This document shows positions 1 through 20,727 of a DNA stretch of 64,000 nucleotides, piece after piece (within the stretch, counting starts at the first letter, position 1; each line of letters begins with the position of its first letter). The stretch is taken from positions 21,734-85,733 of the forward strand of contig JACKFC010000015.1 in assembly GCA_020632665.1 (NCBI GenBank). Reading direction: 5' to 3'. The stretch comes from Deltaproteobacteria bacterium. GTDB lineage: Bacteria; Myxococcota_A; UBA9042. The notes beneath the pieces were generated by a model, which was given only the letters and a program-made list of their open reading frames with translations, was not told the origin of the DNA and did no database searches. Position numbers and translations under genes: made by a program.

Positions 1-2452
1 CGGCGGCGTGGGCCGCGAGGATGGGCGTCAAAGCGTCGGCGTTGCCATCGTTCAGCAGGCCGAGCACGCCGCTGCTCTGCAGCGCGAAGGCGACGGCGCC
101 CTGGCCGAGCTGCCGATCGACGGCCTGGTCGAGCCCACGGTCGAAGCGCGCGAGGACCGCCGAGACAGCAGCCTGCGTCGCGACCGCCATCGGCGCCGCG
201 GCAGCGGCCATGGGGCTATTCGACGCCGGCGTCGCGACGCCCTGCCGCTGGGTATCCTGCGCAGCGCGCTGAATCGCCATGGGCTGGCGCGCCTGCTGCG
301 CCACGCGCTGCTGGCGCTGGGTCGCCTGCGCCGCACGCGGCCCGGTCGGGCGACCTTCGGCGTCGACGGGAACCGGGGCGTCTTCCCCTGGGACGAGCCA
401 CTCGCCAGCGCCGGCGTCGAAGGCCAAGCCACCCTGCATCGGGCTCACGCTGCCGGCGGCGCGGAGGTGCGAGAGCATCTCGTTGCCGGATTCGGCGGCG
501 AAGCCGTCCAAGCCCAGGCTCGGCATCATCGGGGCGGCGAGCGCTCCAGCGATCGAGGTGGGCGAGGTCGACGCGGTCTGCGGCGCTGCGCCGACGCCGG
601 CGAAGAGCCGATCGGTGAGCCGCGTCGCCTGCGCGAGCGTGGCCACGGCGGTGACACCGGGCTGAATCGCTGCGGCGGTCGGCCGGGTGATGGCGGCGGC
701 GGCTGGTAGCGACGCCACGCCCTGCGTGGCCCGAGTCGGTTGGGTCGCGACCGTCTGCAGCGGGGCGCGCTCGGTGAGCCAACGCGGCGTCGCGGCGATC
801 GGGGCGGCAGCGGTCGGAGTGCCCGCGCTGGTACGCGGAGCCTTCCCAGGCGCGGCGTCGGTCGTGGACCGCGTGGCGTCGACCGGAGCCGCGATCTCGA
901 TCTCTTGTGCCAGCGCCAACCACTCGCCGGCGCCGAGCTCGTCACCGAGCGCAGCGACGCGCTCGCGACCGGCGAAACCGAGCGCGGGCTCGGCGGCCTC
1001 GGCGCGGCCTGCGGCGGCGGTATCGTCGAGCCATTGCGACCAGCGGGCGCCGGGCGCCTGCTCGGCCGGCGCACGGAAAGCCGGATGGGCAGCGACGCCA
1101 CGCTCGACGCGGGCGATCAGGGCCGAGGCCGAGGAGACCGCACCCTGCAGCGCGGTCCAGCTCGCCGCGCTGGCCGGGGCCTGCGCGCTCACCGTCGTCG
1201 CGGAACGGGGCGCATCGACCCCGCCGATCGGCGCGGCACCGGCCGGCGTCGTGGGAGCGAGCGTCGTGGCTGCCTCGCGCAAGGCGAGCAGTCCGGAGGT
1301 CTGGCGCTGCGCGGGCGCGGCCGTGGTGCCGGCCGGAGCGGTCGTGGTCAGCGGGCGTGCCGTTTGGCTCGCCAGATCGCGCCGCACCATGCGTGGCGCG
1401 GCCTGCAGGTTGCGGGTCTGCAGGCGAGCCTGCAGCGCGGCCTGGACGACGCGCTGCGACGGAGCGGACGCCGCGATTGCGGCCGGCGTCGCCGTCGCCG
1501 CCGCAGCGGGCGCGGCCATGGTACTGGCGGGAGCGGCCTTCGGCGCAGCGACCCAGCGCTCCTGCTTCGCGTCGAACGCGAGATCGGGCAGGTCGGCGAG
1601 CGGCGCGAGCATGGCCATCTCGGCCTCGCCCTCGGCCAAGCGCAGCGCGCGCGTCGGCATCGCTTCGACCGAGACGTCGCTGACCGAGCCGACCAGGCGC
1701 TGCGCGTCGATGCTGGCCAGCGGTGCCACCCCGTCTTCGCGGAGCAGACGCGCCGAAGCACGCAGGCTCGGACGCGCAGTCAGCGTGACGTCGAAGCTGG
1801 AGAGACCGGGGTCTACAGTCCCCAGGTCCCCAGCGCGATCGGACCTCGCGGCCCCGCTGAGGGCGCCGACGTCTGCAGTCGCGCCGCTCTGCCGGACCGT
1901 CGTGCGCTCGGCGCCTTCGCTGGCCGAGGCGGCGCGGCGGGCCGCGACCTCGGCGGCGCGCTGACGCACCTCGGTGAGGGCCTTGCGGACTGCGGCGAGG
2001 CGACGCGACTGAGCGGGAGCGGCCTTGCGTGGAGCGGTGGCCTGCTTGGATTCGGTGGCCTTGGCTGCAGCAGCGCGGCGGGGCGCGCGACCATCGCTGC
2101 GCAGCGAGCGGGTGGCTTCTTCGAGTGCGGCTTCTTCCTCTTCGAGGACGACCTGAACGAGATCGGCGAGATCGCCGACGGCGAGAGCGCGGACCTCGGC
2201 ACCGAGGCTCTGGGCCAGACGTGGCTCGAGCGCGATCATCGACGCGATCTCGAAGGCTTCGGTGGAGAAGCCGGCGCCGAGTCCGGTGAGGGCGGTGAGC
2301 CCGTCGAGCAGGCCGGTCGCGCCGCTGCCGATGCTCAACGAGCGCTCGGCGTGGGCGGCGATCGGGCTATCTGCCCAACGCGCCAAGACGCCGCGGTGCA
2401 GGCTCAGCACCTCGTCGTTCTGCGTCGCGCTTTGTTCTGTCGTCTCTGCCAC
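1..2452 (-). CDS. Ala/Pro/Thr-rich protein whose 3' end lies beyond the window (>=817 aa). Candidate tape-measure or other structural protein of the contractile-injection-system operon.
   Basis: Absent from the ORF track because there is no stop inside the window. I checked every tca/cta/tta in 1-2452 and none falls in the frame with codons starting at positions = 2 mod 3. The minus frame is therefore open from GTG at 2452 (GGGAGGG about 4 nt upstream) to position 1. Third codon positions are almost all G/C. It lies 44 nt downstream of the tube gene on the same strand. The function is inferred from position only. Confidence 0.6.
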   Translation of the reverse strand, partial: MAETTEQSATQNDEVLSLHRGVLARWADSPIAAHAERSLSIGSGATGLLDGLTALTGLGAGFSTEAFEIASMIALEPRLAQSLGAEVRALAVGDLADLVQVVLEEEEAALEEATRSLRSDGRAPRRAAAAKATESKQATAPRKAAPAQSRRLAAVRKALTEVRQRAAEVAARRAASASEGAERTTVRQSGATADVGALSGAARSDRAGDLGTVDPGLSSFDVTLTARPSLRASARLLREDGVAPLASIDAQRLVGSVSDVSVEAMPTRALRLAEGEAEMAMLAPLADLPDLAFDAKQERWVAAPKAAPASTMAAPAAAATATPAAIAASAPSQRVVQAALQARLQTRNLQAAPRMVRRDLASQTARPLTTTAPAGTTAAPAQRQTSGLLALREAATTLAPTTPAGAAPIGGVDAPRSATTVSAQAPASAASWTALQGAVSSASALIARVERGVAAHPAFRAPAEQAPGARWSQWLDDTAAAGRAEAAEPALGFAGRERVAALGDELGAGEWLALAQEIEIAAPVDATRSTTDAAPGKAPRTSAGTPTAAAPIAATPRWLTERAPLQTVATQPTRATQGVASLPAAAAITRPTAAAIQPGVTAVATLAQATRLTDRLFAGVGAAPQTASTSPTSIAGALAAPMMPSLGLDGFAAESGNEMLSHLRAAGSVSPMQGGLAFDAGAGEWLVPGEDAPVPVDAEGRPTGPRAAQATQRQQRVAQQARQPMAIQRAAQDTQRQGVATPASNSPMAAAAAPMAVATQAAVSAVLARFDRGLDQAVDRQLGQGAVAFALQSSGVLGLLNDGNADALTPILAAHAA

Positions 2453-2495
2453 GGGTCCCTCCCGTTTCGGTTTCGGTTGCGGCCGCTACGGTCCG

Positions 2496-3251
2496 CTACA
2501 TCGCCTTGTAGACGAAGTAGTCGTAGACCATACGGATCTGCTCGAAGCCGACCTGGCTCGACATCGCGTTCAGCGAGAGACCGGAGTACTCGGTGATGAA
2601 CGCGTTGAAGATCTGGTACTCGCCGATCGGCTGGTACTTTCGATTCAGCACGGTGATCGTGATGTTGGAGCGCTTGGCCCCCGCGCCACCGACGAGGCTG
2701 CTGCCGGAGAGCGAGGCCTTCATCATGTCGTAGAACTCGCCGTTGCTGGCGAACCAACCGCGCTTCATGGTCAGCGGCTCGAACTTGCCTGGGCCACGCA
2801 TATTGTAGCTGTGCTCGTTGTTGCCGCCGGAGCGCACCGGGATGGCCTCGGCCTTCCACGACAAGCCACCGATCTCGTTGAACATCGCGTAGGCGATGCT
2901 GCCGATGGTGACCTGGAAGGCGTAGCCGACGTCCGGGTCGCCATCACGCGGCGAGCTGCCGCTCTTGGCCCCGCTGCCGAGGCTGCCGGCTGGCATCCCA
3001 CCGCTCATGCCGATCGTCGCCGTGACCGAGGCGCTGACGCCGCCCTGCGAGACCTTCACCGAGGCCTTCACCGAGGCGTTGAGGCCGCCCATCATCATCG
3101 CGGCGGCAGTCGGCTCGTCGTCGGCCATCGGCACGTCGATCGGCGCTGCTGCCGCGAGGGTGGCGAGGCTGCCCGCCGACTTGGCCGAATCGGCCGCCAC
3201 GAGCTTCTGGTTGCGGCGCCCTGCGGCTGCGCTTGCCTTCTTCGTTGCCAT
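2496..3251 (-). CDS. Contractile-tail tube protein (T4 gp19 / Afp1-like domain) with a ~100-aa low-complexity N-terminal extension
   Basis: The C-terminal ~145 aa (VGYAFQVTIGSIAYAMFNEIGGLSWKAE...YQIFNAFITEYSGLSLNA...VYDYFVY) match the eCIS/phage tube pattern. ATG at 3251 is preceded by GGAGGA. GC3 stays high through the extension. Confidence 0.8.
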   Translation of the reverse strand: MATKKASAAAGRRNQKLVAADSAKSAGSLATLAAAAPIDVPMADDEPTAAAMMMGGLNASVKASVKVSQGGVSASVTATIGMSGGMPAGSLGSGAKSGSSPRDGDPDVGYAFQVTIGSIAYAMFNEIGGLSWKAEAIPVRSGGNNEHSYNMRGPGKFEPLTMKRGWFASNGEFYDMMKASLSGSSLVGGAGAKRSNITITVLNRKYQPIGEYQIFNAFITEYSGLSLNAMSSQVGFEQIRMVYDYFVYKAM

Positions 3252-3283
3252 CTCGTTCCTCCACACGCGCCTGCGGCCGGGGC

Positions 3284-5044
3284 CTAGGCGCCATCCTCAC
3301 GAGCCAGCGCGTCGACCTCTTGGGTGACGCGAAGACCGATGTACTCCGCCGGTCGAAACGGCGAGAGCCAGACGTCGACGTTGACCTGACCACGGTTCTG
3401 CGTGGTCGGGGTGTTGGTCTCGCTGTCGCAGCGGACCAGGAAGGCCTCCTGCTGCGAAGCGCCCTTCAGATAGCCCTGGCGCCAGAGCTGGTCGAGGAAG
3501 AACGACACGTCGCGCGCGATCGTCTGCCACAACCCCTGGTCGTTGTTCTCGAACACCACCCACTGCAGACCGACGTTCAGCGCGCGGGTGATGGCGACGA
3601 TGGTGCGTCGCACGTTGACGAACTGCAGCGGCCCATCGGCAGAAGCCGTGCGGGCACCCCAGACGCGGATACCGCGCTGGGCGAAGACTTGGCTGCAATT
3701 GATTCCTTCGGCGTTCAACATCGCGATGTCTTGCTGCTGCAAGAACAGTTCCAAGTCGACCACACCTTCGAGCTGTTCGTTGGCCGGGGCGCGATAAACA
3801 CCCTGGCTGTGGTCACAGCGGGCGTAGATGCCGGCGACGTGGCCCGAGGGGGGCACCGCCTTGCCCGTGGTGGAATTCGACGGGATCACGTAGGGATAGT
3901 AGAACGCAGCGAAGCTCGTGTTGAAGAGCCGGCGCCACTGCATCGCCCCGCGCGGGTTCTCGCCGGGCGGGATATCCAAGATCGCGAAGCGATCTTTTTT
4001 CTCCTCGCACTGGGTGACGATGGCCGACTGGACGATCTCGACGTCCTTGGGCGACTTGAAGCCGGCCGACTTCTCCAGGCACCAAGCGAGATCGGGCGCG
4101 ACGAGCAGGTCGATCTCCTCGAGATCGGCGATGCCGGCGAGGCCGTAGCGGTGCCCCGGGCCGAGATCCGCGCCGATGAAGTCTTCGGCGGTGACGGTGT
4201 AGAGGCCGTCCGTTCCGCCGTCGAGCCGCGTCGGCGGGCATTCGACGGGGAAGTTCTCTGGGATCGACGTGACCGCGTCGAGGTTGGCGACCTCGATCAA
4301 GCGCGATCGCTTGTTGATGACGCGCTCGGCGAATTGCGGCGACTGCCGGGCGAGGTTCAGGCCGCGGAAGACTTCGCGCTCGCTGTGGGTCTCGACCACG
4401 AGATCGAAGCCGACCGGCTCGACCAGGGTCGGGGCCATCGACTTGAACTCGGTCTCGAGCGGCTCTCGCTCGTTCCACCACAGCGTCCGCCCGTCGACCC
4501 GGGTCAGCACCCGGTAGGCGGCGTGGTCGTCGTCGTAGATCTTGACCAGGGTGCCACGGGCGAAGCCGTAGGTGCTCTTCACCATCACGCTGCTCTCGCC
4601 GGGGTGGCCGTCGACGGTGATGAAGGTCTGCACCTTGGCTTCAGGTCGCTGGATGTGGACGCGGATCGCGTTGCCCCACATGCCCTCGGAGATGGCCTGG
4701 ACGAGCAGGGTGTTGGCGCCGGCGGCGTCGCGCAGGCGAACCGAGGCGCGGGTGGCGATCTCGTTCCGGCCGCGCTCGAAGAGGTGGCAGATGCGGACGA
4801 CGTAGCACTCGCGTCCGCCGTTGAGGAAGAAGCCGTCGACCGCGGTCTCGAGGTAGCCGCCGACGTCGAGGCTACCGAAGCGCGAGCGGAAATCGGCGAT
4901 GCTGGTGACGCGCACCGGCTCGCTGGTCGGACCGCGCTCGGTCAGGCCGAGGAAGCACGGGACGCCGCTCTGCAGCAATCCGAGTGGGGCGGCGCGCGGC
5001 GCGTCGCGCTCGATGAAGACGCCAGGTGGCCGATTCATCACCAT
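3284..5044 (-). CDS. Contractile tail sheath protein, large paralog (586 aa)
   Basis: Sheath motifs: PGVFIE at the N-terminus, GIYARCDHSQGVYRAPAN, GIRVWGARTAS, FVNVRR, WVVFENNDQGLW, EAFLVRCDSETN. AGGAGGAG lies upstream of the ATG at 5044. Confidence 0.9.
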   Translation of the reverse strand: MVMNRPPGVFIERDAPRAAPLGLLQSGVPCFLGLTERGPTSEPVRVTSIADFRSRFGSLDVGGYLETAVDGFFLNGGRECYVVRICHLFERGRNEIATRASVRLRDAAGANTLLVQAISEGMWGNAIRVHIQRPEAKVQTFITVDGHPGESSVMVKSTYGFARGTLVKIYDDDHAAYRVLTRVDGRTLWWNEREPLETEFKSMAPTLVEPVGFDLVVETHSEREVFRGLNLARQSPQFAERVINKRSRLIEVANLDAVTSIPENFPVECPPTRLDGGTDGLYTVTAEDFIGADLGPGHRYGLAGIADLEEIDLLVAPDLAWCLEKSAGFKSPKDVEIVQSAIVTQCEEKKDRFAILDIPPGENPRGAMQWRRLFNTSFAAFYYPYVIPSNSTTGKAVPPSGHVAGIYARCDHSQGVYRAPANEQLEGVVDLELFLQQQDIAMLNAEGINCSQVFAQRGIRVWGARTASADGPLQFVNVRRTIVAITRALNVGLQWVVFENNDQGLWQTIARDVSFFLDQLWRQGYLKGASQQEAFLVRCDSETNTPTTQNRGQVNVDVWLSPFRPAEYIGLRVTQEVDALAREDGA

Positions 5045-5098
5045 GAGGGCAGCTCCTCCTGGGAGTTGGGGAAAGCAAGGGCCGTGCCTGTTGCGTCG

Positions 5099-5260
5099 CT
5101 ACTTCCGGGACTTGTTGATCTCGCTGTTGATCTCCGAGATCTCTTTGACCCACGTCTGGCGCTCGCGGTGTTCCATGACGAGGATCTCGTCGAGCGGCCA
5201 ATGGAAGTGGTAGGCGATGTACGCTACCTCCTGGTACAGGCGGTCCAGGGGGTAGCTCAC
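5099..5260 (-). CDS. Small conserved eCIS-associated protein (DUF6760-like, 53 aa)
   Basis: Sequence SYPLDRLYQEVAYIAYHFHWPLDEILVMEHRERQTW. The GTG at 5260 overlaps the upstream stop as GTGA. The longer track ORF (to 5308) overlaps the preceding gene. Confidence 0.65.
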   Translation of the reverse strand: MSYPLDRLYQEVAYIAYHFHWPLDEILVMEHRERQTWVKEISEINSEINKSRK

Positions 5261-5628
5261 GATTCCCCCTGGCCACCCCCGGTGTCGACCTCGAAGCCGT
5301 GACCGCACTCAGGGCACTTCACCTTCAGCATCGAGGTGCCTTCCTCGTTGATGCGGCGGTAGAAGTCCTGCAGATAGGCGAGATCGACCGAGAACATCCC
5401 CTCGATGACCGACGGGTTGATGCTCTGCAGCGAGCCGAGCTTGGTGATGACGCGCGAGAGCAGGATGATGACGAGGTAGGCGCGGTTGTTCTGCACGCGG
5501 TAGTCCTGCAGCGGCAGGATCTCGTCCTTGGCGGTCGCCAAGCGCATCACGCCCTTTTGGTGGACATTGCCGTCCTTGTCGACGACGCCGCGAGGCAGGG
5601 TGAACTCGAACTCGGTCTTGAAAGCCAT
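5257..5628 (-). CDS. Phage-tail-assembly-chaperone-like protein (gpE/gp41-like) with a C-terminal CPECG zinc-ribbon motif
   Basis: 123 aa. The pattern EFTLPRG...VMRLATAKDEILPL...IILLSRVITKLGSL...VIEGMFSVDLAYLQDFY is typical of tail-assembly chaperones in tail-like clusters. It sits between the two sheath genes. Confidence 0.65.
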   Translation of the reverse strand: MAFKTEFEFTLPRGVVDKDGNVHQKGVMRLATAKDEILPLQDYRVQNNRAYLVIILLSRVITKLGSLQSINPSVIEGMFSVDLAYLQDFYRRINEEGTSMLKVKCPECGHGFEVDTGGGQGES

Positions 5629-5794
5629 GGGGCTCCTTGCGGGCGCGGTCCGGCTCTGGGACCGCTGGGAGTGGGCCGGGTGATCCCCGACTCAAGCGCG
5701 CGGGGCGCCGGACCGACGGCGTGTCGGCCGGCGCCCCGGCAGGTCGCGGGTCCGACGCGCGTCGCCGAGGACGACGCGCGCCGGACGGGTACCA

Positions 5795-6970
5795 CTACTC
5801 GGAGACGTCACCGCCGGCCGGCATCTGGCCGATGCGGAAGATCACGAACTCGGCGGGCTTCACGGGGCACATGCCGATCTCGCAGATCATCTGGCCCGCG
5901 TCGATGACCTCGGGCGGGTTGGTCTCCTCGTCGCACTTGACGTAGAAGGCCTCCTCCGGGGTCTTGCCGAAGAGGGCGCCCTGGCGCCAGAGGCGGAGCA
6001 GGAACGCGCCGATGTCGCGGGTCACGCGCTTCCACAGGCGATGGTCGTTCGGCTCGAAGACCACCCACTGGGTGCCGAGCTCGATCGACTGCTCGACCAT
6101 GTTGAAGAGGCGACGCACGTTGACGTAGCGCCAGCTGGCGTCCGACGAGACCGTGCGGGCACCCCAGACGCGGATGCCGCGGTTCGGGAACTCACGGATG
6201 CAGTTGATGCCCTTCGGGTTGAGCAGGTCCTGCTCGCCGCGGGTGATGTTGTACTTCAGGCCGATGGCGCCACGGACGATCTCGTTCGCGGGGGCCTTGT
6301 GCACGCCGCGCTCACCGTCGCTACGCGCGTAGATGCCGGCCATGTAGCCGCTCGGCGGCATGAAGACGTTGCCCTTGAAGGGGTCGTAGACCTCGACCCA
6401 CGGGAAGTAGTACGCGCCGTACTTGCTGTCGCGGGGCTTCGGGAGCTTGTCCACGCCGCCCTTCTCGATCACCTCGGGGGAGTCGAGAATCGCGAACCGG
6501 TAGCGCATGTTCTCGCAGTGGGTCAGGACGGCGTCCTGGATGACCGGGTCGGTCTGGCCGGGGGCGCAGACGACGTTGACGTCGTCGACATCCTCGAGCG
6601 CCTTCAGGCCGGTGCGGGTGCCCGGGCCGTTGTCGCTGCCCATGTAGAGCGCGGCCTTGCTGGCGGGCTTCTTGCCCTCTTTGTCGCCAGCGGCGGCGCC
6701 TTCCATCGTGCCGACGTTCAGCACGAAGGCGCGCGAGCCACCGTTGTTGAAGAAGCCGTAGACGGCGTGCGCCAGGTACTCGCTGTTCTGGAAATCACCG
6801 AAGTGCTTCGTGAACTGCGACCAGTTGGTGCACAGGATCGGCTCGTTGACCGGACCGACGGCGCACTCTCCAAGGAACGCGACCGTGCTGGTGCCGACCA
6901 TCTCGAGCGGCTTGGTACCGCGGTCGACTTCCTCGACGTAGACGCCTGGTGACAGGTAGGACGTAGCCAT
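5795..6970 (-). CDS. Contractile tail sheath protein, small paralog (391 aa)
   Basis: Motifs PGVYVEEV, GIYARSDGERGVHKAPAN, GIRVWGARTVS, YVNVRR, WVVFEPNDHRLW, EAFYVKCDEETN. Confidence 0.9.
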   Translation of the reverse strand: MATSYLSPGVYVEEVDRGTKPLEMVGTSTVAFLGECAVGPVNEPILCTNWSQFTKHFGDFQNSEYLAHAVYGFFNNGGSRAFVLNVGTMEGAAAGDKEGKKPASKAALYMGSDNGPGTRTGLKALEDVDDVNVVCAPGQTDPVIQDAVLTHCENMRYRFAILDSPEVIEKGGVDKLPKPRDSKYGAYYFPWVEVYDPFKGNVFMPPSGYMAGIYARSDGERGVHKAPANEIVRGAIGLKYNITRGEQDLLNPKGINCIREFPNRGIRVWGARTVSSDASWRYVNVRRLFNMVEQSIELGTQWVVFEPNDHRLWKRVTRDIGAFLLRLWRQGALFGKTPEEAFYVKCDEETNPPEVIDAGQMICEIGMCPVKPAEFVIFRIGQMPAGGDVSE

Positions 6971-7050
6971 GCTCTCTCCCCTTCACTCGTTGTCGCCCGG
7001 TTTGCTGCGCCCTTCCAGGACGCTCCGGACGAGGTTGAAAACCAAGTGCT

Positions 7051-7638
7051 TCAACGCCTGACGGCGAAGTCGCGACCGATGACTCTCCGCACCTCGGTGC
7101 TCCTGCGGTCCGACTCGACGCGGAACCGGATGAAGTAGAACAGCGTCGGGCGCAGCTCTTCGTTCATCGAGCGCCAGAACGACATGGTGTCGTTCGCGTC
7201 GGCTTGCAGGTTCGGGTGGATGTTGATCTGATCGTCCGGGTAGAACGAGTCCCCCTTGAGCTGCGGTCCGGCGAGGACCGTGTTCTCGAGGAAAGTCTTG
7301 ACCACCAGGCCGAGCAGCAGGTTCTCCTCTGCGGGCGAGTTGCCCCAGACCGAGATCGCGAAGTTCGCGTTCAAGTAGACCGGGCCGTCGCGGTAGAACT
7401 CGACGATATTGCCTTCGCGATCGTGGGTCGACACGAGGCCATCGGTCCGCTCACGGTAATTCTGCGCAAAACCAATATGGTAGAGGAAGCAGTTCACCGT
7501 CGGCAGGTTCTTGATGTTGTCCTTCTTCGGCTTTTCGGTGCCCACGCTGACGGTCGTGAAGCCGGACGTCTTGAAGGACTCCTTGAGGAGTTCCTTCACC
7601 GTCTCGCCCAGGTCTCGGATGACCTCGAACTGGCTCAT
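7051..7638 (-). CDS. DUF4255 / Pvc16-Afp16-like tail terminator (cap) protein
   Basis: 195 aa. The pattern LKELLKESF...LPTVNCFLYHIGFAQNYRER...ISVWGNSPAEENLLLGLVVKTF fits the DUF4255 family that marks eCIS loci. It is the first gene of the operon as seen here. Confidence 0.8.
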   Translation of the reverse strand: MSQFEVIRDLGETVKELLKESFKTSGFTTVSVGTEKPKKDNIKNLPTVNCFLYHIGFAQNYRERTDGLVSTHDREGNIVEFYRDGPVYLNANFAISVWGNSPAEENLLLGLVVKTFLENTVLAGPQLKGDSFYPDDQINIHPNLQADANDTMSFWRSMNEELRPTLFYFIRFRVESDRRSTEVRRVIGRDFAVRR

Positions 7639-7730
7639 CGTGCTCCCGCGCGAGGTGGCTCTGACCGCTCGCGTTGCCCCGGCGTGTGGCGTGGCGAGTA
7701 AGGCATAGCGGCGCGCGACGTGTCAACGCG

Positions 7731-10724
7731 CTACTTGCAACAGGTCGCGTAGCCCGGACAGCAGTCGCCCGCGGTCTGGCAGTAGCCGTCGCAGTAGCAA
7801 TCCTTGGTGCTGTAGATCAGGCAGACACCCGGGATGAGCTCGATGAGGCAAGGCCCGTTGATGGTGCCGGCAGGCGAGGACGAGCCGCACTTGCCGCCGC
7901 AGACGCTGCCGGCGCAGGTGTTGCACGCGTCGCCGCCCTGGCAGTCGTCGTCCTTGTTGTTGCACTGGATCTCGGTCGCGCCAGGATGCACGGCGCTGTC
8001 GCTGTCGGCACAGTCGCCGCTGTTCTTCGCGGTATACTTGCCGGTCGGCTTGCAGAGGACCTGGCTGGAGCCGGCCACGCCCCAGCCGTCGCCGTCGTTG
8101 TCGAGGTAGTAGGTGACCTTGCCTGGCGCGCTCTCGTCGGTCTGGCCGTTGCAGTTGTCGTCCTTGTCGTTGCAGCTCTCCGCGGCTCCGGGCTTGGTGG
8201 TCGCGGCGTTGTCGTCGCAGTCTCCGGATTGGGTCGCGGTGTAGCTGCCGAGCGCCTTGCACAGGCATTGGCTGGCACCGCTCTGGCCGAAGCCGTCCTT
8301 GTCGTTGTCGATGTAGTAGTCGGTGCAGCCGGCAGCGCCTTGCTCGTCGGTGACGCCGTTGCAGTTGTCGTCCTTGTTGTTGCAGGCCTCGGTCGCGCCG
8401 AGGTGGACGCCCTTGTCGTCGTCCTTGCAGTCGCCGGGCTTGAGCGCCGAGTGCGTGCCGTCGGCGGCGCAGAGGCATTTGGTCGGCGCGTAGGCGTCGC
8501 CGTAGCCGTCTTTGTCGGCGTCGACGAAGTAGGTATTGCAGCCCGCGGCACCGACGCCGTCGGTGCTGCCGTCGCAATCGTCGTCCTTGCCGTTGCAGCT
8601 CTCCTTGCCGGCCGGCGAGACGTTGGCCAGCGCGTCGTCGCAGTCGCCGGCCTTGGTCGCGGTGTAGGGGACCTTGGCCTTGCAGAGGCAGGCGGTGTCG
8701 CTGGGCTTGCCGTAGCCGTCTTGGTCGGCGTCGCCCCAGTAGATCGTGCAGCCCACCGCGTCGACCTCGTCGGTCACGGCGTCGCAGTCGTCGTCCTTGC
8801 CGTTGCAGACCTCGCCCTGCTTCGGCGAGGCGGCGGCGTCGGCGTCGTCGCAATCGCCGGCCTGGGTGACGACGTGGGTGGCGTCGGGCTTGCAGAGGCA
8901 GAGCTCGCTGCCGGGCTTGCCGTAGCCGTCCTTGTCGCCGTCGACGTAGTGCTTGCTGCAGCCGCTGGCGTCCTGCTCGTCGGTTTGCCCGTCGCAGTCG
9001 TCGTCGATCGTATTGCAGGACTCGGCGGCCTTCGGCGAGACGTCGGCGACCTTGTCGTCACAATCACCGGCTGCCGTCGCGGAGTAGGCGCCGGTGGGGG
9101 CACAGAGGCATTGCGCCAGCGTCGCGTCGCCGTAGCCGTCCTTGTCGCCGTCGAAGTAGAGCTTGGTGCAGCCGACCGCGTCTTGTTCGTCGGTCTGCCC
9201 GTCGCATTCGTCGTCTTTGCCGTTGCAGGACTCGGTTGCCGCCGGATGCACGCTCTTGTCGCCGTCGTCGCAATCACCGGCGATGAGGACCGGGAACGCT
9301 GCCGTCGGCTTGCACAGGCATGCGTTCTTGCTGCCGTCGCCGGCGCCGTCGAGATCGACGTCGGCGTAGGCGGTTTGGCAGCCCAGGGCGTCCTGTTCGT
9401 CGGTCTGGCCGTCGCAGTCGTCGTCCTTGCCGTTGCAGACCTCGGTCGCCGAGGGCGCGATCGAAAGGTCGAGCGGGGCGCAGTCCGCGGCGTCGAGCGC
9501 GCCGTCGTTGTCGTCGTCGGGGTCGACGCAATCGGCGAGGCCGTCGCTGTCGGTATCGGTGAAGCCCTCGTCGGTCTGGCCGTCGCAGTCGTCGTCCTGG
9601 CCGTTGCAGGCCTCGGCGGCCGGGGTCGCCGCCGAGCAGAGCAGCACGGCGCCGTCGCAGCTCGTGGTGCCGGGGCAGCTGCCGAAGGTATTGCTCTGCT
9701 GGCACGGCTGGCCGCTCAACGCCTCGTCGGTCTGGCCGTCGCAATCGTCGTCCTGGCCGTTGCAGAGCTCGGCGGCGGGGGCCTTCGCGTCGCAGCCCGC
9801 ACTGAGACCGTCGCAGGTCGTCGCGCCGGTGCAGGCGCCGAATTCGTTGCTCTGCTGGCAGGGCTGGCCGCTGAGGCCCTCGTCGGTCTGGCCGTCGCAG
9901 TCGTCGTCTTGGTCGTTGCAGACCTCCGCGATCGGGGTCATCGCGTTGCAGCCGGTCAGGCCGTCGATCGCGCACTTCCGCTGGCCGAGGCAGGTGCCGG
10001 CGTCGTTGCTGACGCTGCAGGTGGTGCTGTCGCCCGCGGCGATCGCGGCGGGGGAGCAGGTGCAGTCGGCGTCCTTGCGCACGCATTGCTTCGCCGCGCC
10101 TTGTTGCCCCTGCGCCAGCTCGCAGGCGTAGCCGCTGGGACAGTCCGCGCTCTCGATGCAGCCGGCGCCGCAGAAGCCGCCGCCCGCGCCGGTCTGCACG
10201 CAGAGGGCGTCTTTGGCCAGGTCGTCGCAGAAGGCGTCGGTCTCGCAGGGGCGGCAGAGCGCTTTGAGCTTGGAGACGCAGATGAAGACGGTGTCGCTGC
10301 CGGGGGCGGACTCGCAGGTCCAGCCGGTGGGGCAGCACTCGATGCAGGTCCGCGAGCAGCGCTTGCCGTCGGGGCTGTCGACGCACCAACTCGAGTCGCA
10401 GTCCGAAGCCTGCTCGCACGCCGCGCCGGGCTCGCCGGGGGCCGGATTGGCGGGGAAATCGCAGCCGTTGCCGGACTCGCCGGTGTCGACGTCGGGGCTG
10501 CCGTCGACCGCCGTCGCCGCGTCGACCGGGCCGGCGCCGGCGTCGCTGGTCGGTTTCGCGTCGTCGCTGCCGAAGCCGACGTCGAAGCCGAAGAGCACGT
10601 CGGAGCCGCCGCCCGCTTGGCCTGCGCCCTGGGTCGCGGTCGGGCCGGAGTCGCTGCAGCCGACGATCGCGACGGCGAGGAGGAGCGAGGCCACGACGCT
10701 GCGGCAAGGAAGAGATGCGGTCAC
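7731..10724 (-). CDS. Secreted lipoprotein with ~11 MopE-type putative metal-binding Cys repeats, plus EGF-like and thrombospondin-type-3-like segments
   Basis: GTG at 10724 with GGAGG 6 nt upstream. Lipobox LLLAVAIVGC. The motif GDCDD..(P)..E.CNG.DDDCDGQTDE is repeated about 11 times. One DTDSDGLADCVDPDDDNDG Ca-binding-like stretch is present. The C-terminus is Cys-rich. Confidence 0.85.
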   Translation of the reverse strand: MTASLPCRSVVASLLLAVAIVGCSDSGPTATQGAGQAGGGSDVLFGFDVGFGSDDAKPTSDAGAGPVDAATAVDGSPDVDTGESGNGCDFPANPAPGEPGAACEQASDCDSSWCVDSPDGKRCSRTCIECCPTGWTCESAPGSDTVFICVSKLKALCRPCETDAFCDDLAKDALCVQTGAGGGFCGAGCIESADCPSGYACELAQGQQGAAKQCVRKDADCTCSPAAIAAGDSTTCSVSNDAGTCLGQRKCAIDGLTGCNAMTPIAEVCNDQDDDCDGQTDEGLSGQPCQQSNEFGACTGATTCDGLSAGCDAKAPAAELCNGQDDDCDGQTDEALSGQPCQQSNTFGSCPGTTSCDGAVLLCSAATPAAEACNGQDDDCDGQTDEGFTDTDSDGLADCVDPDDDNDGALDAADCAPLDLSIAPSATEVCNGKDDDCDGQTDEQDALGCQTAYADVDLDGAGDGSKNACLCKPTAAFPVLIAGDCDDGDKSVHPAATESCNGKDDECDGQTDEQDAVGCTKLYFDGDKDGYGDATLAQCLCAPTGAYSATAAGDCDDKVADVSPKAAESCNTIDDDCDGQTDEQDASGCSKHYVDGDKDGYGKPGSELCLCKPDATHVVTQAGDCDDADAAASPKQGEVCNGKDDDCDAVTDEVDAVGCTIYWGDADQDGYGKPSDTACLCKAKVPYTATKAGDCDDALANVSPAGKESCNGKDDDCDGSTDGVGAAGCNTYFVDADKDGYGDAYAPTKCLCAADGTHSALKPGDCKDDDKGVHLGATEACNNKDDNCNGVTDEQGAAGCTDYYIDNDKDGFGQSGASQCLCKALGSYTATQSGDCDDNAATTKPGAAESCNDKDDNCNGQTDESAPGKVTYYLDNDGDGWGVAGSSQVLCKPTGKYTAKNSGDCADSDSAVHPGATEIQCNNKDDDCQGGDACNTCAGSVCGGKCGSSSPAGTINGPCLIELIPGVCLIYSTKDCYCDGYCQTAGDCCPGYATCCK
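7920..9930 (-). repeat. Tandem coding repeats (~190-bp period) encoding the MopE-like modules
   Basis: The CNGxDDDCDGxTDE codon blocks recur through this span of the lipoprotein gene. Confidence 0.8.
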
Positions 10725-10846
10725 GTGGGCCTCCGCGGCAGCCCGAAACGACGGGCTCCGTCGCCTGCCATCATGGCAAGACCGCAGCGAAGATCCAGAC
10801 AATCACGGCGTCGAAGGGTCGGTCGGCCCCGCCGCGGCAGCGGAAA

Positions 10847-12321: not shown

Positions 12322-13902
12322 ATGGATTCCGCCGACGTTCGCCAGGACCTGCTGTTCTGCCGAGGCTGCGGCAAGCACTACCGCGGCCGCCGCCGACGTT
12401 GCCCGGACGACGGCGCCGAGCTCGAGTGGGTGCGGCCGTTCGCCGGAGAAGAAGGTACGCGGGTCGACGATCGCTACGTCCTCGAGCGCCGGATCGGCAT
12501 CGGCGGGATGGGCACCGTCTGGCGGGCGCGCGACGAACTCACCGGACGCAAGGTCGCGCTGAAGCTGCTCAACGAGCGCTACGCCGCCCACGCCGCCAGC
12601 GCGCAACGCTTCCTGCGCGAGGCCCGGCTGATGCGCAAGGTCAACCATCCCGGCGTGGTGTCGTTGCACCGCTTCGGACCGACCGGCGACGGCGCGCTGC
12701 TCATCGACATGGAATATATCGACGGCGAGACCGTCCGCGAGCGCGTGCTCCGGGTCGGCGGCGGCGTCGACATGGAGATCGGCCTGCGGGTGCTGGACGG
12801 CTTGCTCGCGGCGCTGGCGGCCTGCCACGACGCCGGCCTGGTCCACCTCGACGTCAAGCCCGAGAACGTGATGCTGCACACGGCGGTGCACGAGGGCACG
12901 GTCAAGCTGGTCGACTTTGGCATCGCGCAGCCGATTGGCCCCATCGAGCACGGTGAGGACTTCGTCGTCCTCGGCACGCCGGCGTTCATGAGCCCGGAGC
13001 AGGTCCGCGGCGTCCCGGTCGACGCACGTACCGACCTCTACCTGGTCGGCTGCGTCGCTTTCGAGTTGCTGACGGGTGAGCCGCCCTTCCGCGGCGACAA
13101 GCCCTTCGAGCTCTGCCAGGCGCAGGTGCTGACCGCACCGCCGACGCTCGCCGAGCGGATGCCGGGCAAGAAGCTGCCCGACGGGCTGGATCGTTGGGTC
13201 GCGGCGTTGCTGGAGAAGAACCCGGACAACCGGCCGCGCTCTGCCCGGGTCGCGCGCGAGGCGTTGCGGCAGATTCGGCTGCGCCACCGCGAGGCCTCGC
13301 TGCCGCGTGCGCACTCGCCGCGGCCAGCCTCGATCAGCCGCTTGATGCACGCAGATCCGGCGCGGATCCAGATCGCCAACAGCCAGGGCGCGGTGCGGGC
13401 CCTGCGGGCGCTGGTGGAGGTCCGCCAGATCGGCGACGGCGGCACGCTCTACGGCCCGAAGGCGCTCGAAGAGATGGCGAAGCACCTGCTGGCCGGCGCA
13501 GTGGCGGAGCTGCGCGACTGCGGCGCGACCGTCCTCGGCCCCGAGGGCGCCTTCCTCGACATTCGCATGGCCTGCGACGACGACGAGCGCGGCGCCATCC
13601 ACCACCTGCTCGACATGCTCGGCAAGATGCACGCTGACGTCGGCCGGATCCCCGAACCACGGCTGGAGGTCCGCGCCGCTGTGCTGGCGGATAGCCCGGA
13701 CGCCCCTGGCTTCCTGCAGTCGCGGCCGCAGCACGAGCTCGCCGCGCTGCTGCATATCGGACCCGATACGCACGTGCGCGTCGACGAGCACGTCGCGCGC
13801 TGGGCCGGACGGCGGCCGATCGTGCGCCTCGCGTCATTCCGCGAGGCCGGGATCTCGGGCCTGACGACGCTCTACGCGACGACGCTGCAGCAAGCCGTCT
13901 AG
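12322..13902 (+). CDS. Ser/Thr protein kinase with an N-terminal zinc ribbon and a C-terminal degenerate cyclase-homology-like domain
   Basis: CRGCGKHY...CPDDG. Kinase motifs GIGGMGTVWRA, ALK, HLDVKPENV, DFG, TPAFMSPE. Confidence 0.9.
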   Translation: MDSADVRQDLLFCRGCGKHYRGRRRRCPDDGAELEWVRPFAGEEGTRVDDRYVLERRIGIGGMGTVWRARDELTGRKVALKLLNERYAAHAASAQRFLREARLMRKVNHPGVVSLHRFGPTGDGALLIDMEYIDGETVRERVLRVGGGVDMEIGLRVLDGLLAALAACHDAGLVHLDVKPENVMLHTAVHEGTVKLVDFGIAQPIGPIEHGEDFVVLGTPAFMSPEQVRGVPVDARTDLYLVGCVAFELLTGEPPFRGDKPFELCQAQVLTAPPTLAERMPGKKLPDGLDRWVAALLEKNPDNRPRSARVAREALRQIRLRHREASLPRAHSPRPASISRLMHADPARIQIANSQGAVRALRALVEVRQIGDGGTLYGPKALEEMAKHLLAGAVAELRDCGATVLGPEGAFLDIRMACDDDERGAIHHLLDMLGKMHADVGRIPEPRLEVRAAVLADSPDAPGFLQSRPQHELAALLHIGPDTHVRVDEHVARWAGRRPIVRLASFREAGISGLTTLYATTLQQAV

Positions 13903-13973: not shown

Positions 13974-14007
13974 GGCGCCAACCCCGCGAGGAGATTGGCG
14001 CCTTCTT
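13974..14007 (+). terminator. Hairpin plus T-rich tail downstream of the kinase gene, abutting attL
   Basis: GGCGCCAA (13974-13981) pairs with TTGGCGCC (13995-14002), followed by TTCTT. In the uninterrupted locus it would sit back-to-back with the tRNA-Asp 3' end. Confidence 0.4.
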
Positions 14008-14031
14008 GGCGGAGTGGACGGGACTTGAACC
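14006..14031. repeat. attL core: orphan copy of the tRNA-Asp 3' end
   Basis: TTGGCGGAGTGGACGGGACTTGAACC is identical to 29685-29710. The sequences diverge immediately beyond it. Confidence 0.85.
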
Positions 14032-14138
14032 GCCACACCCGCCAGCGCGGCAGTTGGCGCAAGAGACGAGCATGATCCGCCGCCCCATCTCCAACGCCCC
14101 GCACTTCGACCAGAGCTTCCTGTTCTGGTGGAGGCCGG

Positions 14139-14474
14139 ATGCGGCTCCTTCACATCGTCATCGCCGAGGCCGAGAACGCGCCTTGTCCCGCTGATCCCCT
14201 GGCGGCCGTCGCCGAGGCCGTGCTCGAACTGGTCGACACCGCGAGGGGCGACGAGCAAAGCTTCGCAGCGGCAACGCTGCTCATGCAGCTCCCTGCGGCG
14301 CGTGCCCGCCTTGACGCGATGTGGCAAGACCACGACCGGCGCCGGAAGGTCTGCATCGGCGCTTATCAGCTGATCGTCGCTGCCGACCAGCTCCGCCTCG
14401 CGCATCGACTACCGCCGCGCCAGGCAGCCATGATGGAGGCGCTCCGCGCCGCGGCCGAGCGGGCAGATGGCTAG
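14139..14474 (+). CDS. Hypothetical protein (111 aa)
   Basis: GGAGG 6 nt upstream of the ATG and high GC3. No motif recognised. Confidence 0.55.
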   Translation: MRLLHIVIAEAENAPCPADPLAAVAEAVLELVDTARGDEQSFAAATLLMQLPAARARLDAMWQDHDRRRKVCIGAYQLIVAADQLRLAHRLPPRQAAMMEALRAAAERADG

Positions 14475-14499
14475 CCCGGCCGCCCACGAGCGAAGGGGC

Positions 14500-20710: not shown

Positions 20711-20727
20711 CCCAGCAGGAGTGCGTG

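What the first reader, a model, noticed from the sequence alone, without database searches (positions are those of the whole stretch)
1..7638. Promoter-proximal half of a contractile injection system (eCIS/phage-tail-like) operon with non-canonical gene order
DUF4255 (cap), two sheath paralogs (391 and 586 aa) and a gp19/Afp1-type tube protein in one minus-strand operon are the hallmark of extracellular or cytoplasmic contractile injection systems. The order here is cap, small sheath, chaperone-like protein, DUF6760-like peptide, large sheath, tube, and then a long Ala-rich protein. In the Afp/PVC and Streptomyces-type loci I remember, the tube genes follow the sheath directly and the chaperone-like pair comes after the tube. 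Only one tube gene is visible. The baseplate, spike, ATPase and any cargo genes must lie beyond position 1, so the system cannot be classified from this window.
Basis: partly seen in the sequence, partly recalled or inferred. Interest (0 to 1): 0.7.

Follow-up and report, generated by a model that had tools for sequence, protein, structure and literature searches.

The report
Myxobacterial injection-system operon missing its tube gene
This is the first half of a phage-tail-like "molecular syringe" operon of an uncultured myxobacterium; its odd gene order arises because the family carries two sheath-tube gene pairs and this lineage has moved the main tube gene elsewhere in the genome.

Summary
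Window 1-7726 (minus strand) holds a promoter-like site, a DUF4255 cap, a 391-aa sheath, a chaperone-like 123-aa protein coupled to a 53-aa DUF6760 peptide, a 586-aa sheath, a gp19 tube with a ~105-aa N-terminal extension, and the first 817 aa of an Ala-rich tape-measure-like protein.

Eleven syntenic Myxococcota loci show the missing half: tube initiator (CIS_tube+LysM), VgrG-related spike, gp25, Baseplate_J, P2-I/Cis12-like, Cis13-like, then FHA and transmembrane VWA-FHA proteins. No AAA+ ATPase, capsid or terminase is present. The system is therefore not a remnant or a prophage tail.

The "non-canonical order" has a specific cause. The family order is cap-sheath-tube1-chaperone-DUF6760-sheath2-tube2-TMP. 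The window's lineage lacks tube1 in the operon, while a sister locus (L032) keeps it. Orphan tube1 genes sit among housekeeping genes. In one MAG of this lineage (JAGSHB01) the tube1-less cluster and an orphan tube1 lie on different contigs.

The small sheath is closest to the Streptomyces cytoplasmic CIS and the haloarchaeal T6SS-like CIS. Verdict: an uncharacterised but abundant variant of a known kind. Interest is moderate.

The parts
7697..7726 (-). Candidate sigma-70-type promoter of the operon: TTGACA (7726-7721), 18-nt spacer, CTTACT (7702-7697), followed by a ~60-nt leader and an RBS-like GGGAG before the cap ATG.
   Evidence: The TTGACA-N16-18-xTAxxT arrangement sits in the same place upstream of the cap gene in L005, L006, L007, L010, L032, L012 and L018. 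The strict consensus scan did not call it, because its -10 hexamer lacks A at position 2.
7051..7638 (-). Cap / tube terminator (Afp16/Cis16-like, DUF4255), 195 aa; first gene of the operon.
   Evidence: Pfam Pvc16_N, 68 bits. PDB hit 9gts_0A, a Pvc16 N-terminal domain protein of the Streptomyces CIS, E 2.5e-9. Identity to relatives is 73-96% and dN/dS is 0.05-0.08.
5795..6970 (-). Small sheath (391 aa); inferred main sheath.
   Evidence: Pfam Phage_sheath_1 plus 1C. Best PDB hits are 8bky_A/8bl4_V, Streptomyces CIS-Sc Cis2 (470 bits), and the 9ezm haloarchaeal CIS sheath (416 bits). It is 90-99% identical across the clade and 84% to variant A. dN/dS is 0.05-0.14 with unusually low dS, and GC3 is 0.94.
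5700..5784 (-). Two strong GC-rich hairpins in the 166-nt spacer between the small sheath and p123. This is the position where relatives carry the tube1 gene.
   Evidence: RNA fold -109 kcal/mol, z = -5.2 against shuffles. The hairpin sequences are conserved in L010, L005 and L003. No tube1 remnant is present.
5257..5628 (-). p123: tail-assembly-chaperone-like protein with an invariant CPxCxH motif.
   Evidence: PHROG 508 'tail assembly chaperone', E 1.4e-5. At least 8000 homologues, the best 120 all at least 78% identical, named 'phage tail assembly protein' by NCBI. Invariant C105/C108/H110. dN/dS 0.05-0.07.
5099..5260 (-). DUF6760 peptide, 53 aa, translationally coupled to p123.
   Evidence: Pfam DUF6760, E 5e-15. 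The GTG start overlaps the p123 stop (GTGA) with a GGGGGA site upstream. It always follows p123 in relatives.
3284..5044 (-). Large sheath paralog (586 aa) with an inserted domain; inferred baseplate-proximal or specialised sheath.
   Evidence: Pfam sheath domains at residues 338-574. It hits the same PDB sheaths as the small paralog but at 280 bits. It is ~40% identical to the small sheath over the C-terminal ~290 aa, 61-90% identical within the clade, with dN/dS 0.13-0.20.
2496..3251 (-). Tube paralog ('tube2'): gp19 tube domain (residues ~105-251) behind a clade-specific ~105-aa Ala/Gly/Ser-rich N-terminal extension.
   Evidence: Pfam Phage_T4_gp19 at 98 bits and TIGR02241. It is 35% identical to L012 tube2 and only 22% to tube1. 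The extension is in frame in all 10 loci and carries the motif K/RLVAxE..GS..LPAxAP..AAM. Only one representative hit in 1.8 billion proteins, from the same clade.
1..2452 (-). N-terminal 817 aa of an Ala-rich (25% Ala) tape-measure-like protein; the gene runs off the window.
   Evidence: GTG 2452 behind GGGAGGG. Composition. Orthologues are 1444-1986 aa, sit between tube2 and the LysM tube initiator, overlap its start, and end in a conserved helix ELEALAMKIARSVLVRIKRERERRG. No Pfam, PHROG or NCBIfam hit.

Best explanation
Window 1-7726 is the 5' half of a chromosomal contractile-injection-system (CIS) operon of an uncultured Myxococcota lineage.

Shown by sequence:
- The genes run from a promoter-like site just after the upstream gene's stop.
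- In order they encode the cap (Cis16-like), a highly conserved small sheath, a translationally coupled chaperone-like/DUF6760 pair, a second larger sheath paralog, a divergent tube paralog with an N-terminal extension, and a ~1450-aa Ala-rich tape-measure-like protein.

Shown by synteny in relatives:
- The operon continues with a LysM tube initiator, a VgrG-related spike, a small Zn-ribbon protein, gp25, Baseplate_J, a P2-I/Cis12-like protein and a Cis13-like protein.
- It ends with a soluble FHA protein and a membrane-spanning VWA-FHA protein, with no AAA+ ATPase.

The unusual order has two causes:
- The family has two sheath-tube modules flanking the chaperone pair: cap-sheathS-tube1-p123-DUF6760-sheathL-tube2-TMP.
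- In the window's lineage the tube1 gene (the conserved, Afp1/Cis1-like main tube) has left the operon. It is encoded as a stand-alone gene among housekeeping genes elsewhere in the genome.

Inferred mechanism:
- The unlinked tube1 and the small sheath build the trunk.
- The large sheath and tube2 form the baseplate-proximal layers, as Afp3/4 and Afp5 do.
- p123/DUF6760 chaperone the tape measure.
- The cap terminates the tube.
- The FHA/VWA-FHA pair couples assembly or firing to the inner membrane and to Ser/Thr phosphorylation.
For: - Domain identities.
- Synteny surE-apt-(MopE)-cap-shS-p123-DUF6760-shL-tube-TMP holds in L001-L011.
- Downstream half in L015/L016, L017 and L109.
- Variant A with tube1 between the small sheath and p123 occurs in L012-L014 and in about 50 metagenomic loci.
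- L032 belongs to the window's surE-apt clade (shS 92%, shL 69%, surE 67%) and still has tube1 in the operon.
- Tube1 has no tblastn hit in the 64-kb window or in L001-L011. Only 166 bp separate the small sheath from p123, and there is no remnant.
- About 25 loci carry an orphan tube1 with no CIS gene within 5 kb, in varied housekeeping contexts.
- Orphans are under purifying selection: pN 0 against pS 0.185 between two different contexts. They are nearest to L032's in-operon tube1.
- Key link: orphan tube1 P0249 lies on JAGSHB010000133.1, and the tube1-less cluster L001 lies on JAGSHB010000018.1 of the same MAG, GCA_023954815.1.
- Second co-occurrence: assembly ERZ1283888 holds both kinds of contig, with matching composition.
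- Strong purifying selection on cap, small sheath and p123; low dS of the small sheath suggests high expression.
- The VWA-FHA protein has two TM segments flanking the VWA domain.
Against: - The window's own genome could not be examined beyond 64 kb, so tube1 elsewhere is inferred from relatives.
- The same-MAG link rests on metagenomic binning. GC is 0.627 against 0.615 and tetranucleotide r is 0.94, which is consistent but not discriminating.
- NCBIfam CIS1 and CIS5 models do not separate tube1 from tube2. The PDB search places the window tube nearer to main-tube proteins (All3324, Alg1) than to Pvc5/Afp5-type adaptors. The 'baseplate-proximal adaptor' role of tube2 and the large sheath therefore rests on gene position and conservation pattern only.
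- The promoter is not called by the strict consensus scan.
- The TMP assignment rests on position, size and a conserved C-terminal helix only.
- The missing ATPase could also be unlinked.
Confidence: 0.75

Rival explanations
1. Single-tube system. In this lineage tube1 is truly dispensable, and the N-extended tube paralog in the operon builds the whole inner tube together with both sheaths. Orphan tube1 genes would then belong to other systems or other organisms.
For: - Only one gp19 gene is in the operon and in the window.
- Many contractile systems work with one tube protein (own knowledge: P2, R-pyocins, T6SS Hcp).
- The window tube's best PDB hits are main-tube proteins.
- L018, a distant relative, also lacks tube1 in the operon.
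Against: - The small sheath shows no accelerated change in tube1-less loci. It is 90-94% identical to the window, against 92% for L032, which retains tube1.
- The window tube is only 22% identical to tube1, and its dN/dS of 0.36 is the most relaxed in the operon.
- Orphan tube1 genes are conserved under purifying selection with no other CIS genes nearby. One is binned in the same MAG as a tube1-less cluster.
Confidence: 0.17
2. Degenerate remnant: a decaying CIS cluster that has lost its tube gene and ATPase and no longer makes particles.
For: The in-operon main tube gene is absent, and no AAA+ ATPase is found in relatives' clusters.
Against: - All genes are intact, with high GC3.
- dN/dS is 0.05-0.2 for cap, sheaths and p123, lower than for the neighbouring housekeeping genes surE and apt.
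- The same architecture is conserved across at least 11 MAGs from different lakes and sediments.
- The complete baseplate half is present in relatives.
- Related Myxococcota gp19 genes are reported as highly transcribed in situ (PMC11937823).
Confidence: 0.03
3. Tail module of a myovirus-like prophage.
For: Sheath, tube, chaperone and tape-measure genes are phage-tail homologues. A prophage-like element with a terminase-like ORF, a GH25 lysozyme and an integrase at a tRNA lies at about 14-29.7 kb in the same window.
Against: - The operon is separated from that element by a MopE-repeat lipoprotein gene, apt, surE and a Ser/Thr kinase gene.
- The surE-apt-CIS synteny is conserved in relatives that lack the element.
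- No capsid, portal or terminase gene flanks the cluster in L015-L017 or L109.
- The DUF4255 cap and the sheath's similarity to the CIS-Sc sheath are CIS hallmarks.
Confidence: 0.02

Closest known systems
Streptomyces coelicolor cytoplasmic CIS (CIS-Sc; Casu et al. 2023, PMC10066040; PDB 8BKY/8BL4, 9GTP/9GTS)
   Same: - The small sheath is its closest solved relative (470 bits, E 4e-140).
- The cap matches the Streptomyces CIS cap chain 9gts_0A (Pvc16 N-terminal domain protein).
- The cluster has no conventional tail fibre.
- A conserved membrane protein lies at the end of the cluster (Sco4242/CisA there, TM-VWA-FHA here).
   Different: - The small sheath here lacks the Cis2 inserted domain; the match comes in two stretches, and query 94-388 aligns to Cis2 225-530.
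- A second, larger sheath paralog is present.
- A 1450-2000-aa tape-measure-like protein is present, whereas CIS-Sc is described as lacking a typical TMP.
- FHA proteins are present, and the main tube gene is unlinked.
- The host is a diderm. Localisation is untested.
Haloarchaeal T6SS-like CIS (Halogeometricum borinquense; PMC11566945; PDB 9EZM)
   Same: Second-closest solved sheath (416 bits). [quoted passage not shown] Cis12- and Cis13-like proteins are present in relatives here.
   Different: That cluster has an ATPase and lacks a cis14 tape measure. This one is the reverse. The membrane protein is unrelated: six TM helices there, a VWA-TM-FHA protein here.
Afp / PVC extracellular CIS (Serratia, Photorhabdus; PDB 6RAO, 6J0N)
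   Same: - Several sheath paralogs and two tube paralogs.
- A sheath paralog followed by a second tube gene just before the baseplate genes (own knowledge of the afp1-afp16 order; component names).
- Cap, TMP, LysM initiator, VgrG, gp25 and gp6-like genes are shared.
   Different: - The cap comes first rather than last, and the TMP lies before the baseplate genes.
- No Afp15 ATPase in the cluster and no adenovirus-type fibre.
- The chaperone/DUF6760 pair sits between the two sheath-tube modules.
- Sequence similarity is much lower (Pvc2 199 bits, Afp3 179 bits).
PLTS/eCIS-like clusters of Myxococcota (Sarris et al. 2014, PMC4122934; Chen et al. 2019, PMC6899500; seamount UBA796 MAGs, PMC11937823; Haliangiales model, bioRxiv 2024.12.19.629468)
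   Same: Same phylum. Two sheath ORFs were noted for Myxococcaceae. Clusters in uncultured Myxococcota MAGs have a highly transcribed gp19 gene and are proposed to act in predation.
   Different: The passages read here do not mention the tube1-less operon with an unlinked tube gene, the FHA/TM-VWA-FHA module, or the absent ATPase. I could not see their figures or supplements. I did not test whether their loci are orthologous to this one.
T6SS threonine-phosphorylation pathway (Fha/TagH with PpkA/PppA)
   Same: FHA-domain proteins are encoded in a contractile-system cluster, one of them membrane-spanning. A Ser/Thr kinase gene is conserved next to the locus in this clade. The comparison to the T6SS pathway is from my own knowledge.
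   Different: No TssB/C, TssJLM or ClpV. The sheath is phage/CIS type. Kinase linkage may be mere chromosomal synteny, since it is absent from the L012/L018 contexts.

Membership tests
Contractile injection system superfamily (eCIS/PLTS, Afp/PVC-like) | Phage-type contractile sheath protein(s) | tested here: met
   Two ORFs carry Phage_sheath_1 plus Phage_sheath_1C. Both give strong hits to solved CIS sheaths.
Contractile injection system superfamily (eCIS/PLTS, Afp/PVC-like) | gp19/Hcp-type inner tube protein | tested here: met
   Phage_T4_gp19 at 98 bits and TIGR02241 at 84 bits for 2496-3266. The conserved main-tube paralog is absent from the window.
Contractile injection system superfamily (eCIS/PLTS, Afp/PVC-like) | DUF4255 / Afp16-type cap (absent from classical T6SS per Chen et al. 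2019) | tested here: met
   Pvc16_N at 68 bits. PDB 9gts_0A, E 2.5e-9. Literature.
Contractile injection system superfamily (eCIS/PLTS, Afp/PVC-like) | Baseplate and spike: LysM initiator, VgrG, gp25, Baseplate_J | tested here: inconclusive
   These lie outside the window. All are present directly downstream in syntenic relatives L003, L015/L016, L017 and L109.
Contractile injection system superfamily (eCIS/PLTS, Afp/PVC-like) | Cluster-encoded AAA+ ATPase (Afp15), one of the 8 core components in more than 85% of loci | tested here: not met
   No AAA-domain gene lies between surE/apt and the FHA genes in L015-L017 or L109, and none was found among the window ORFs scanned. It could be unlinked.
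Contractile injection system superfamily (eCIS/PLTS, Afp/PVC-like) | No capsid, portal or terminase genes in the cluster | tested here: met
   Flanks are housekeeping genes here and in relatives. The prophage-like element at 14-29.7 kb is separate.
CIS subclade containing Streptomyces CIS-Sc (dbeCIS IId) | Sheath groups with Cis2 of Streptomyces | tested here: inconclusive
   The best PDB hit by far is Cis2 (470 bits, against 199 for Pvc2). No phylogeny was built against dbeCIS reference sets.
CIS subclade containing Streptomyces CIS-Sc (dbeCIS IId) | Cytoplasmic, non-released particles | not testable with these tools
   This needs microscopy or fractionation. The only indirect hints are a TM-VWA-FHA protein and the absence of lysis genes in the cluster.
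Myovirus prophage tail module | Contiguity with head, packaging and lysis modules, plus integration signatures | tested here: not met
   The locus is conserved at the surE-apt position across the clade.
Type VI secretion system | TssB/TssC sheath, TssJLM membrane complex, ClpV | tested here: not met
   The sheaths are Phage_sheath_1 type. No T6SS families appear among the Pfam or NCBIfam hits for cluster proteins. Only the FHA proteins are reminiscent of T6SS.

The most novel reading that the evidence does not exclude
This family is a cell-bound, T6SS-like injection machine of Myxococcota, not a released eCIS.
- It would be anchored and triggered through the operon-encoded periplasmic-VWA/TM/cytoplasmic-FHA protein and Ser/Thr phosphorylation.
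- It would work without a dedicated ATPase.
- It would be built from two distinct sheath-tube modules.
- The trunk tube subunit would be expressed from an unlinked, separately regulated gene, so that tube supply gates assembly.
- The clade-specific N-terminal extension on the second tube protein would fill the lumen as a tether or cargo-loading element.
Probability: 0.2. Interest if true: 0.75.

Novelty: new variant of a known kind. Interest (0 to 1): 0.45.

Why it matters
- The p123 chaperone-like family alone has at least 8000 close homologues in public metagenomes. Related Myxococcota tube genes are reported among the most transcribed genes of uncultured predatory lineages. This is therefore an abundant but uncharacterised nanomachine.
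- Automated eCIS finders rely on linked core genes: two tube genes, an ATPase and a fibre. A system whose main tube gene and possibly its ATPase are unlinked will be mis-scored as incomplete.
- The sister loci with and without the in-operon tube gene form a natural experiment on how the stoichiometry and regulation of the most abundant subunit are organised.
- The FHA/TM-VWA-FHA module gives a testable handle on whether these systems act from inside the cell, like the Streptomyces and haloarchaeal relatives, or as released particles.

Tried and rejected
1. Exact-sequence look-ups of both sheaths found the window's proteins absent from the gene-position collection, so the contig could not be extended directly.
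2. I considered a programmed -1 frameshift joining p123 and DUF6760, as in phage G/GT chaperones. The frames do differ by -1, but there is no slippery heptamer. A GTG start overlapping the stop behind a good Shine-Dalgarno site explains the overlap, so I rejected the frameshift in favour of translational coupling.
3. I tried NCBIfam CIS1 versus CIS5 models to tell the main tube from the adaptor. Both paralogs score higher on CIS5, far below cut-off, so this is uninformative.
4. The AlphaFold2 model of p123 from a 26-sequence alignment had mean pLDDT 48. It was unusable, and I ran no fold search.
5. Searching the tube N-extension against 1.8 billion representatives gave one hit, from the same clade, and no functional clue.
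6. I looked for a promoter or operator motif shared between the operon and orphan tube1 genes. Only generic sigma-70-like elements turned up.
7. JGI sample 3300001596 holds a tube1-less cluster on a 5.04-Mb contig and an orphan tube1 on a 6.58-Mb contig. I first took this as the same genome. The contig numbering suggests many >5-Mb contigs, possibly separate genomes, so I downgraded it to weak evidence.
8. I found no conserved neighbour for the orphan tube1 genes nearest to the window's clade. A 164-aa upstream ORF shared by L031 and L033, and the meaB-like gene seen in three loci, are the only recurrences.
9. A literature search for DUF6760 returned nothing.

Full report
**Observation.** The window is ~70% G+C. 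Coding frames are easy to recognise from GC3 of 0.85-0.94. On the minus strand between 7638 and 1 there are seven consecutive genes.
- 7051-7638: Pfam gives Pvc16_N/DUF4255.
- 5795-6970 (391 aa): Phage_sheath_1 plus Phage_sheath_1C.
- 5257-5628 (123 aa): no Pfam hit.
- The short ORF after it: DUF6760.
- 3284-5044 (586 aa): the two sheath domains again.
- 2496-3266: Phage_T4_gp19. NCBIfam adds TIGR02241 for this tube.
- Below 2452: an open, Ala-rich frame that runs off the window.

Four details change.
- DUF6760 starts at GTG 5260, which overlaps the p123 stop (GTGA) behind GGGGGA. It is 53 aa and translationally coupled.
- The tube starts at ATG 3251, and only residues ~105-251 are tube domain.
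- The Ala-rich gene starts at GTG 2452 behind GGGAGGG.
- A TTGACA-N18-CTTACT element at 7726-7697 lies directly after the stop of the upstream gene. It is conserved upstream of the cap gene in seven related loci, although a strict consensus scan does not call it.

**Surroundings.** Upstream on the same strand lie a 1023-aa Cys-rich lipoprotein with 11 MopE repeats, then apt and surE. A Ser/Thr kinase gene is divergent from them. The rest of the window is ordinary chromosome: moeA, sucC, mevalonate-pathway genes, a miaB-like gene, an M1 peptidase, an ECF sigma/FecR pair, ligA and an FHA-GAF-cyclase. The exception is a prophage-like element at about 14-29.7 kb, which carries a terminase-like ORF, a GH25 lysozyme and an integrase abutting tRNA-Asp/tRNA-Val. 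That element is separated from the operon by housekeeping genes and has no sheath or tube homologues.

**Relatives and the missing half.** A scan of species-representative genomes with the tube domain returned 11 loci, eight titled Myxococcales or Myxococcota MAGs and three with broader or discordant record titles (Proteobacteria, Pseudomonadota, 'uncultured Enterobacteriaceae'). They share the order surE-apt-(MopE in some)-cap-small sheath-p123-DUF6760-large sheath-tube-Ala-rich protein. The kinase is conserved upstream in the six loci that extend far enough. Downstream, in L003, L015/L016, L109 and the more distant L017, the operon continues as follows.
- The Ala-rich protein, 1444-1614 aa (1986 aa in L012).
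- A CIS_tube+LysM tube initiator whose start overlaps the stop of the Ala-rich gene.
- A 382-aa VgrG-related protein (NCBIfam, 147 bits).
- A 75-aa four-Cys Zn-ribbon protein.
- gp25.
- A 999-aa Baseplate_J/TIGR02243 protein.
- A Tail_P2_I/CIS12-like protein.
- A 518-aa protein whose N-terminus matches CIS13_fam.
- A 221-aa FHA protein.
- A 524-aa protein with a periplasmic VWA domain between two TM segments and a cytoplasmic FHA domain.

After these the strand and gene content change. None of these clusters contains an AAA+ ATPase, a capsid gene or a terminase. The expectation of a linked ATPase is not met either.

**Why the order looks wrong.** The p123 family is very large. At least 8000 hits were returned, the best 120 are all at least 78% identical, and NCBI names them 'phage tail assembly protein'. 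p123 also matches PHROG 508, 'tail assembly chaperone'. In a 9.29-Mb genome (OW818691.1, L012) the order is cap-sheath(382)-tube(143)-p123-DUF6760-sheath(587)-tube(167)-1986-aa protein-LysM initiator-VgrG. A second sheath-tube pair then precedes the tape measure. About 50 metagenomic loci show this same 'variant A'.

The first tube ('tube1') has no tblastn match in the whole window or in L001-L011. The window's tube is the second type: 35% identical to L012 tube2 and 22% to tube1. In the window only 166 bp separate the small sheath from p123. That spacer holds two strong hairpins (z = -5.2) and no tube remnant. L032 belongs to the window's own surE-apt clade, with surE 67%, small sheath 92% and large sheath 69% identity to the window. 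It still carries tube1 in the operon. The gene was therefore lost from this position within the clade.

**Where tube1 went.** About 25 of the 80 metagenomic tube1 loci are 'orphans'. They hold a single tube1 gene with no other CIS gene within 5 kb, in varied housekeeping contexts such as glmS-like, meaB-like, pseudouridine synthase and OmpA/SLT genes. The orphans L031, L033, L039 and L042 are the nearest relatives (90-94%) of L032's in-operon tube1. One orphan protein is 100% identical in two different genomic contexts while 18.5% of synonymous sites differ, which indicates strong purifying selection.

The most direct link is this. Orphan tube1 P0249 lies on contig JAGSHB010000133.1 of GCA_023954815.1. 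The tube1-less cluster L001, whose small sheath is 94% identical to the window's, lies on JAGSHB010000018.1 of the same MAG. A second co-occurrence is assembly ERZ1283888, which holds both the cluster contig (L002/L109) and an orphan tube1 contig (L104). Their tetranucleotide correlation is 0.95-0.96. Both links depend on binning or co-assembly, and the compositional check is permissive. I therefore put 'tube1 is encoded elsewhere in the window's genome' at about 0.75-0.8.

**Selection.**

| Gene | dN/dS against L010 and L005 |
|---|---|
| cap | 0.05-0.08 |
| small sheath | 0.05-0.14 |
| p123 | 0.05-0.07 |
| large sheath | 0.13-0.20 |
| tube domain | 0.36 |
| surE, apt | 0.15-0.41 |

 The small sheath also has an unusually low dS and a GC3 of 0.94, as expected for a very highly expressed gene. 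Its identity to the window is the same in loci with tube1 (92%) and without it (90-94%). This argues that its partner tube has not changed. Divergence rises steeply along the operon against the closest relative: cap 96, small sheath 99, p123 98, large sheath 90, tube ~70 and Ala-rich protein 48%. I cannot explain that gradient.

**Relation to known systems.** The small sheath's best solved relatives are Cis2 of the Streptomyces coelicolor cytoplasmic CIS (8BKY/8BL4, 470 bits) and the Halogeometricum T6SS-like CIS sheath (9EZM, 416 bits). These are far ahead of Pvc2 (199), Afp3 (179), the Anabaena tCIS (172) and AlgoCIS (161). The large sheath gives the same ranking at lower scores. The cap's only PDB match is the Streptomyces CIS cap chain 9gts_0A.

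The literature already records two sheath ORFs in Myxococcaceae PLTS clusters (PMC4122934). It lists eight core eCIS components including the ATPase (PMC6899500). It reports eCIS-like clusters with highly transcribed gp19 genes in uncultured Myxococcota (PMC11937823) and a modelled Haliangiales CIS. In the Streptomyces and haloarchaeal systems, a cell-internal mode of action goes with a conserved cluster-encoded membrane protein. The TM-VWA-FHA protein is the analogous candidate here, but that is inference.

**Mechanism: what is shown and what is inferred.**
- Shown: gene content, order, translational coupling, conservation, the downstream baseplate in relatives, absence of tube1 from the operon, and existence of conserved unlinked tube1 genes, one of them in a MAG of this clade.
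- Inferred from gene position, from conservation patterns and from my own knowledge of Afp/PVC structures, where Afp3/4 and Afp5 form the baseplate-proximal layers:
  - The small sheath plus unlinked tube1 form the trunk.
  - The large sheath plus the N-extended tube form the proximal layers.
  - The Ala-rich protein is the length ruler. It is 25% Ala, carries recurring G-x-G-x-W-L-x-L-G motifs, and has a conserved C-terminal helix in relatives.
  - p123/DUF6760 chaperone the ruler.
  - The cap terminates the tube.
- Speculative: FHA-mediated coupling to the membrane and to Ser/Thr kinases, and a lumenal or cargo role for the clade-specific N-extension.

**Rivals.**
- A true single-tube system is the main alternative (about 0.17).
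- A degenerate remnant (0.03) and a prophage tail (0.02) are contradicted by selection, synteny and flanks.

**Verdict.** The 'non-canonical order' resolves into a family-typical double sheath-tube architecture plus a lineage-specific relocation of the main tube gene. The predicted ATPase is not linked. This is a new variant of a known kind: abundant, uncharacterised and relevant to how CIS loci are detected and classified, but not categorically new.

Noticed in passing
window 14000-29870: A prophage-like integrative element. It has lower G+C (~0.67), many ORFs with no family hit, a terminase-large-subunit-like ORF (17207-17824, PHROG 2666, E 3e-11), a GH25 lysozyme (21712-22800) and a tyrosine integrase (28510-29724) abutting tRNA-Asp (29686-29762) and tRNA-Val (29795-29868). 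It is not connected to the CIS operon.
   Followed up: partly
window 7731-10802 (-): A 1023-aa secreted, lipobox-bearing Cys-rich protein with 11 MopE 'putative metal-binding' repeats (CNGxDDDCDGxTDE). It is inserted between apt and the CIS promoter. It is present in L003, L004 and L006 but absent in the closest relative L010 and in L001, L005, L007, L008 and L032, so it is a variable insertion rather than part of the system.
   Followed up: partly
window 12322-13899 (+): A Ser/Thr protein kinase gene divergent from surE. It is conserved at this position in L001, L005, L007, L008, L010 and L032 (53-87% identity). Given the FHA proteins at the operon's 3' end in relatives, a functional link is possible, but this may be plain synteny.
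   Followed up: partly
window 5700-5784 (-): Two 17-18-bp GC-rich hairpins without U-tracts lie directly after the small sheath gene (fold z = -5.2) and are conserved in close relatives. They may attenuate transcription or stabilise mRNA so that sheath is made in excess. In L032 similar hairpins follow both the sheath and tube1.
   Followed up: partly
window 1-7638 vs L010/L011: Steep gradient of protein divergence along one operon between very close relatives: small sheath 99%, large sheath 90%, tube ~70%, Ala-rich tape-measure-like protein 48%.
   Followed up: no
L016:9317-9544 (relatives; position between the VgrG-like and gp25 genes): A 75-aa four-cysteine Zn-ribbon protein occupies the slot where PAAR (Afp10/Cis10) sits in other CIS. 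There is no PAAR Pfam hit. It may be an alternative spike tip.
   Followed up: no
L016:16642-18216 and L017:16784-18337: The last gene of the cluster encodes a protein with an N-terminal TM/signal segment, a periplasmic VWA domain, a second TM segment and a cytoplasmic FHA domain. It is preceded by a soluble FHA protein. Both are conserved between distant members of the family.
   Followed up: partly
L067, L068, L075, L083 (about 7.8-9.1 kb): In a more distant branch of the family (small sheath 75-78% identical to the window's) the second tube gene is more similar to tube1 (38-45%) than to tube2. This suggests repeated turnover of the second tube paralog.
   Followed up: no
window 49436-51376 (-) and 43479-47545 (+): An FHA-GAF-adenylate/guanylate cyclase gene, and a mevalonate-pathway cluster (FMN-dependent dehydrogenase-like gene, two GHMP kinases and diphosphomevalonate decarboxylase). 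These are ordinary chromosomal content noted for context.
   Followed up: no
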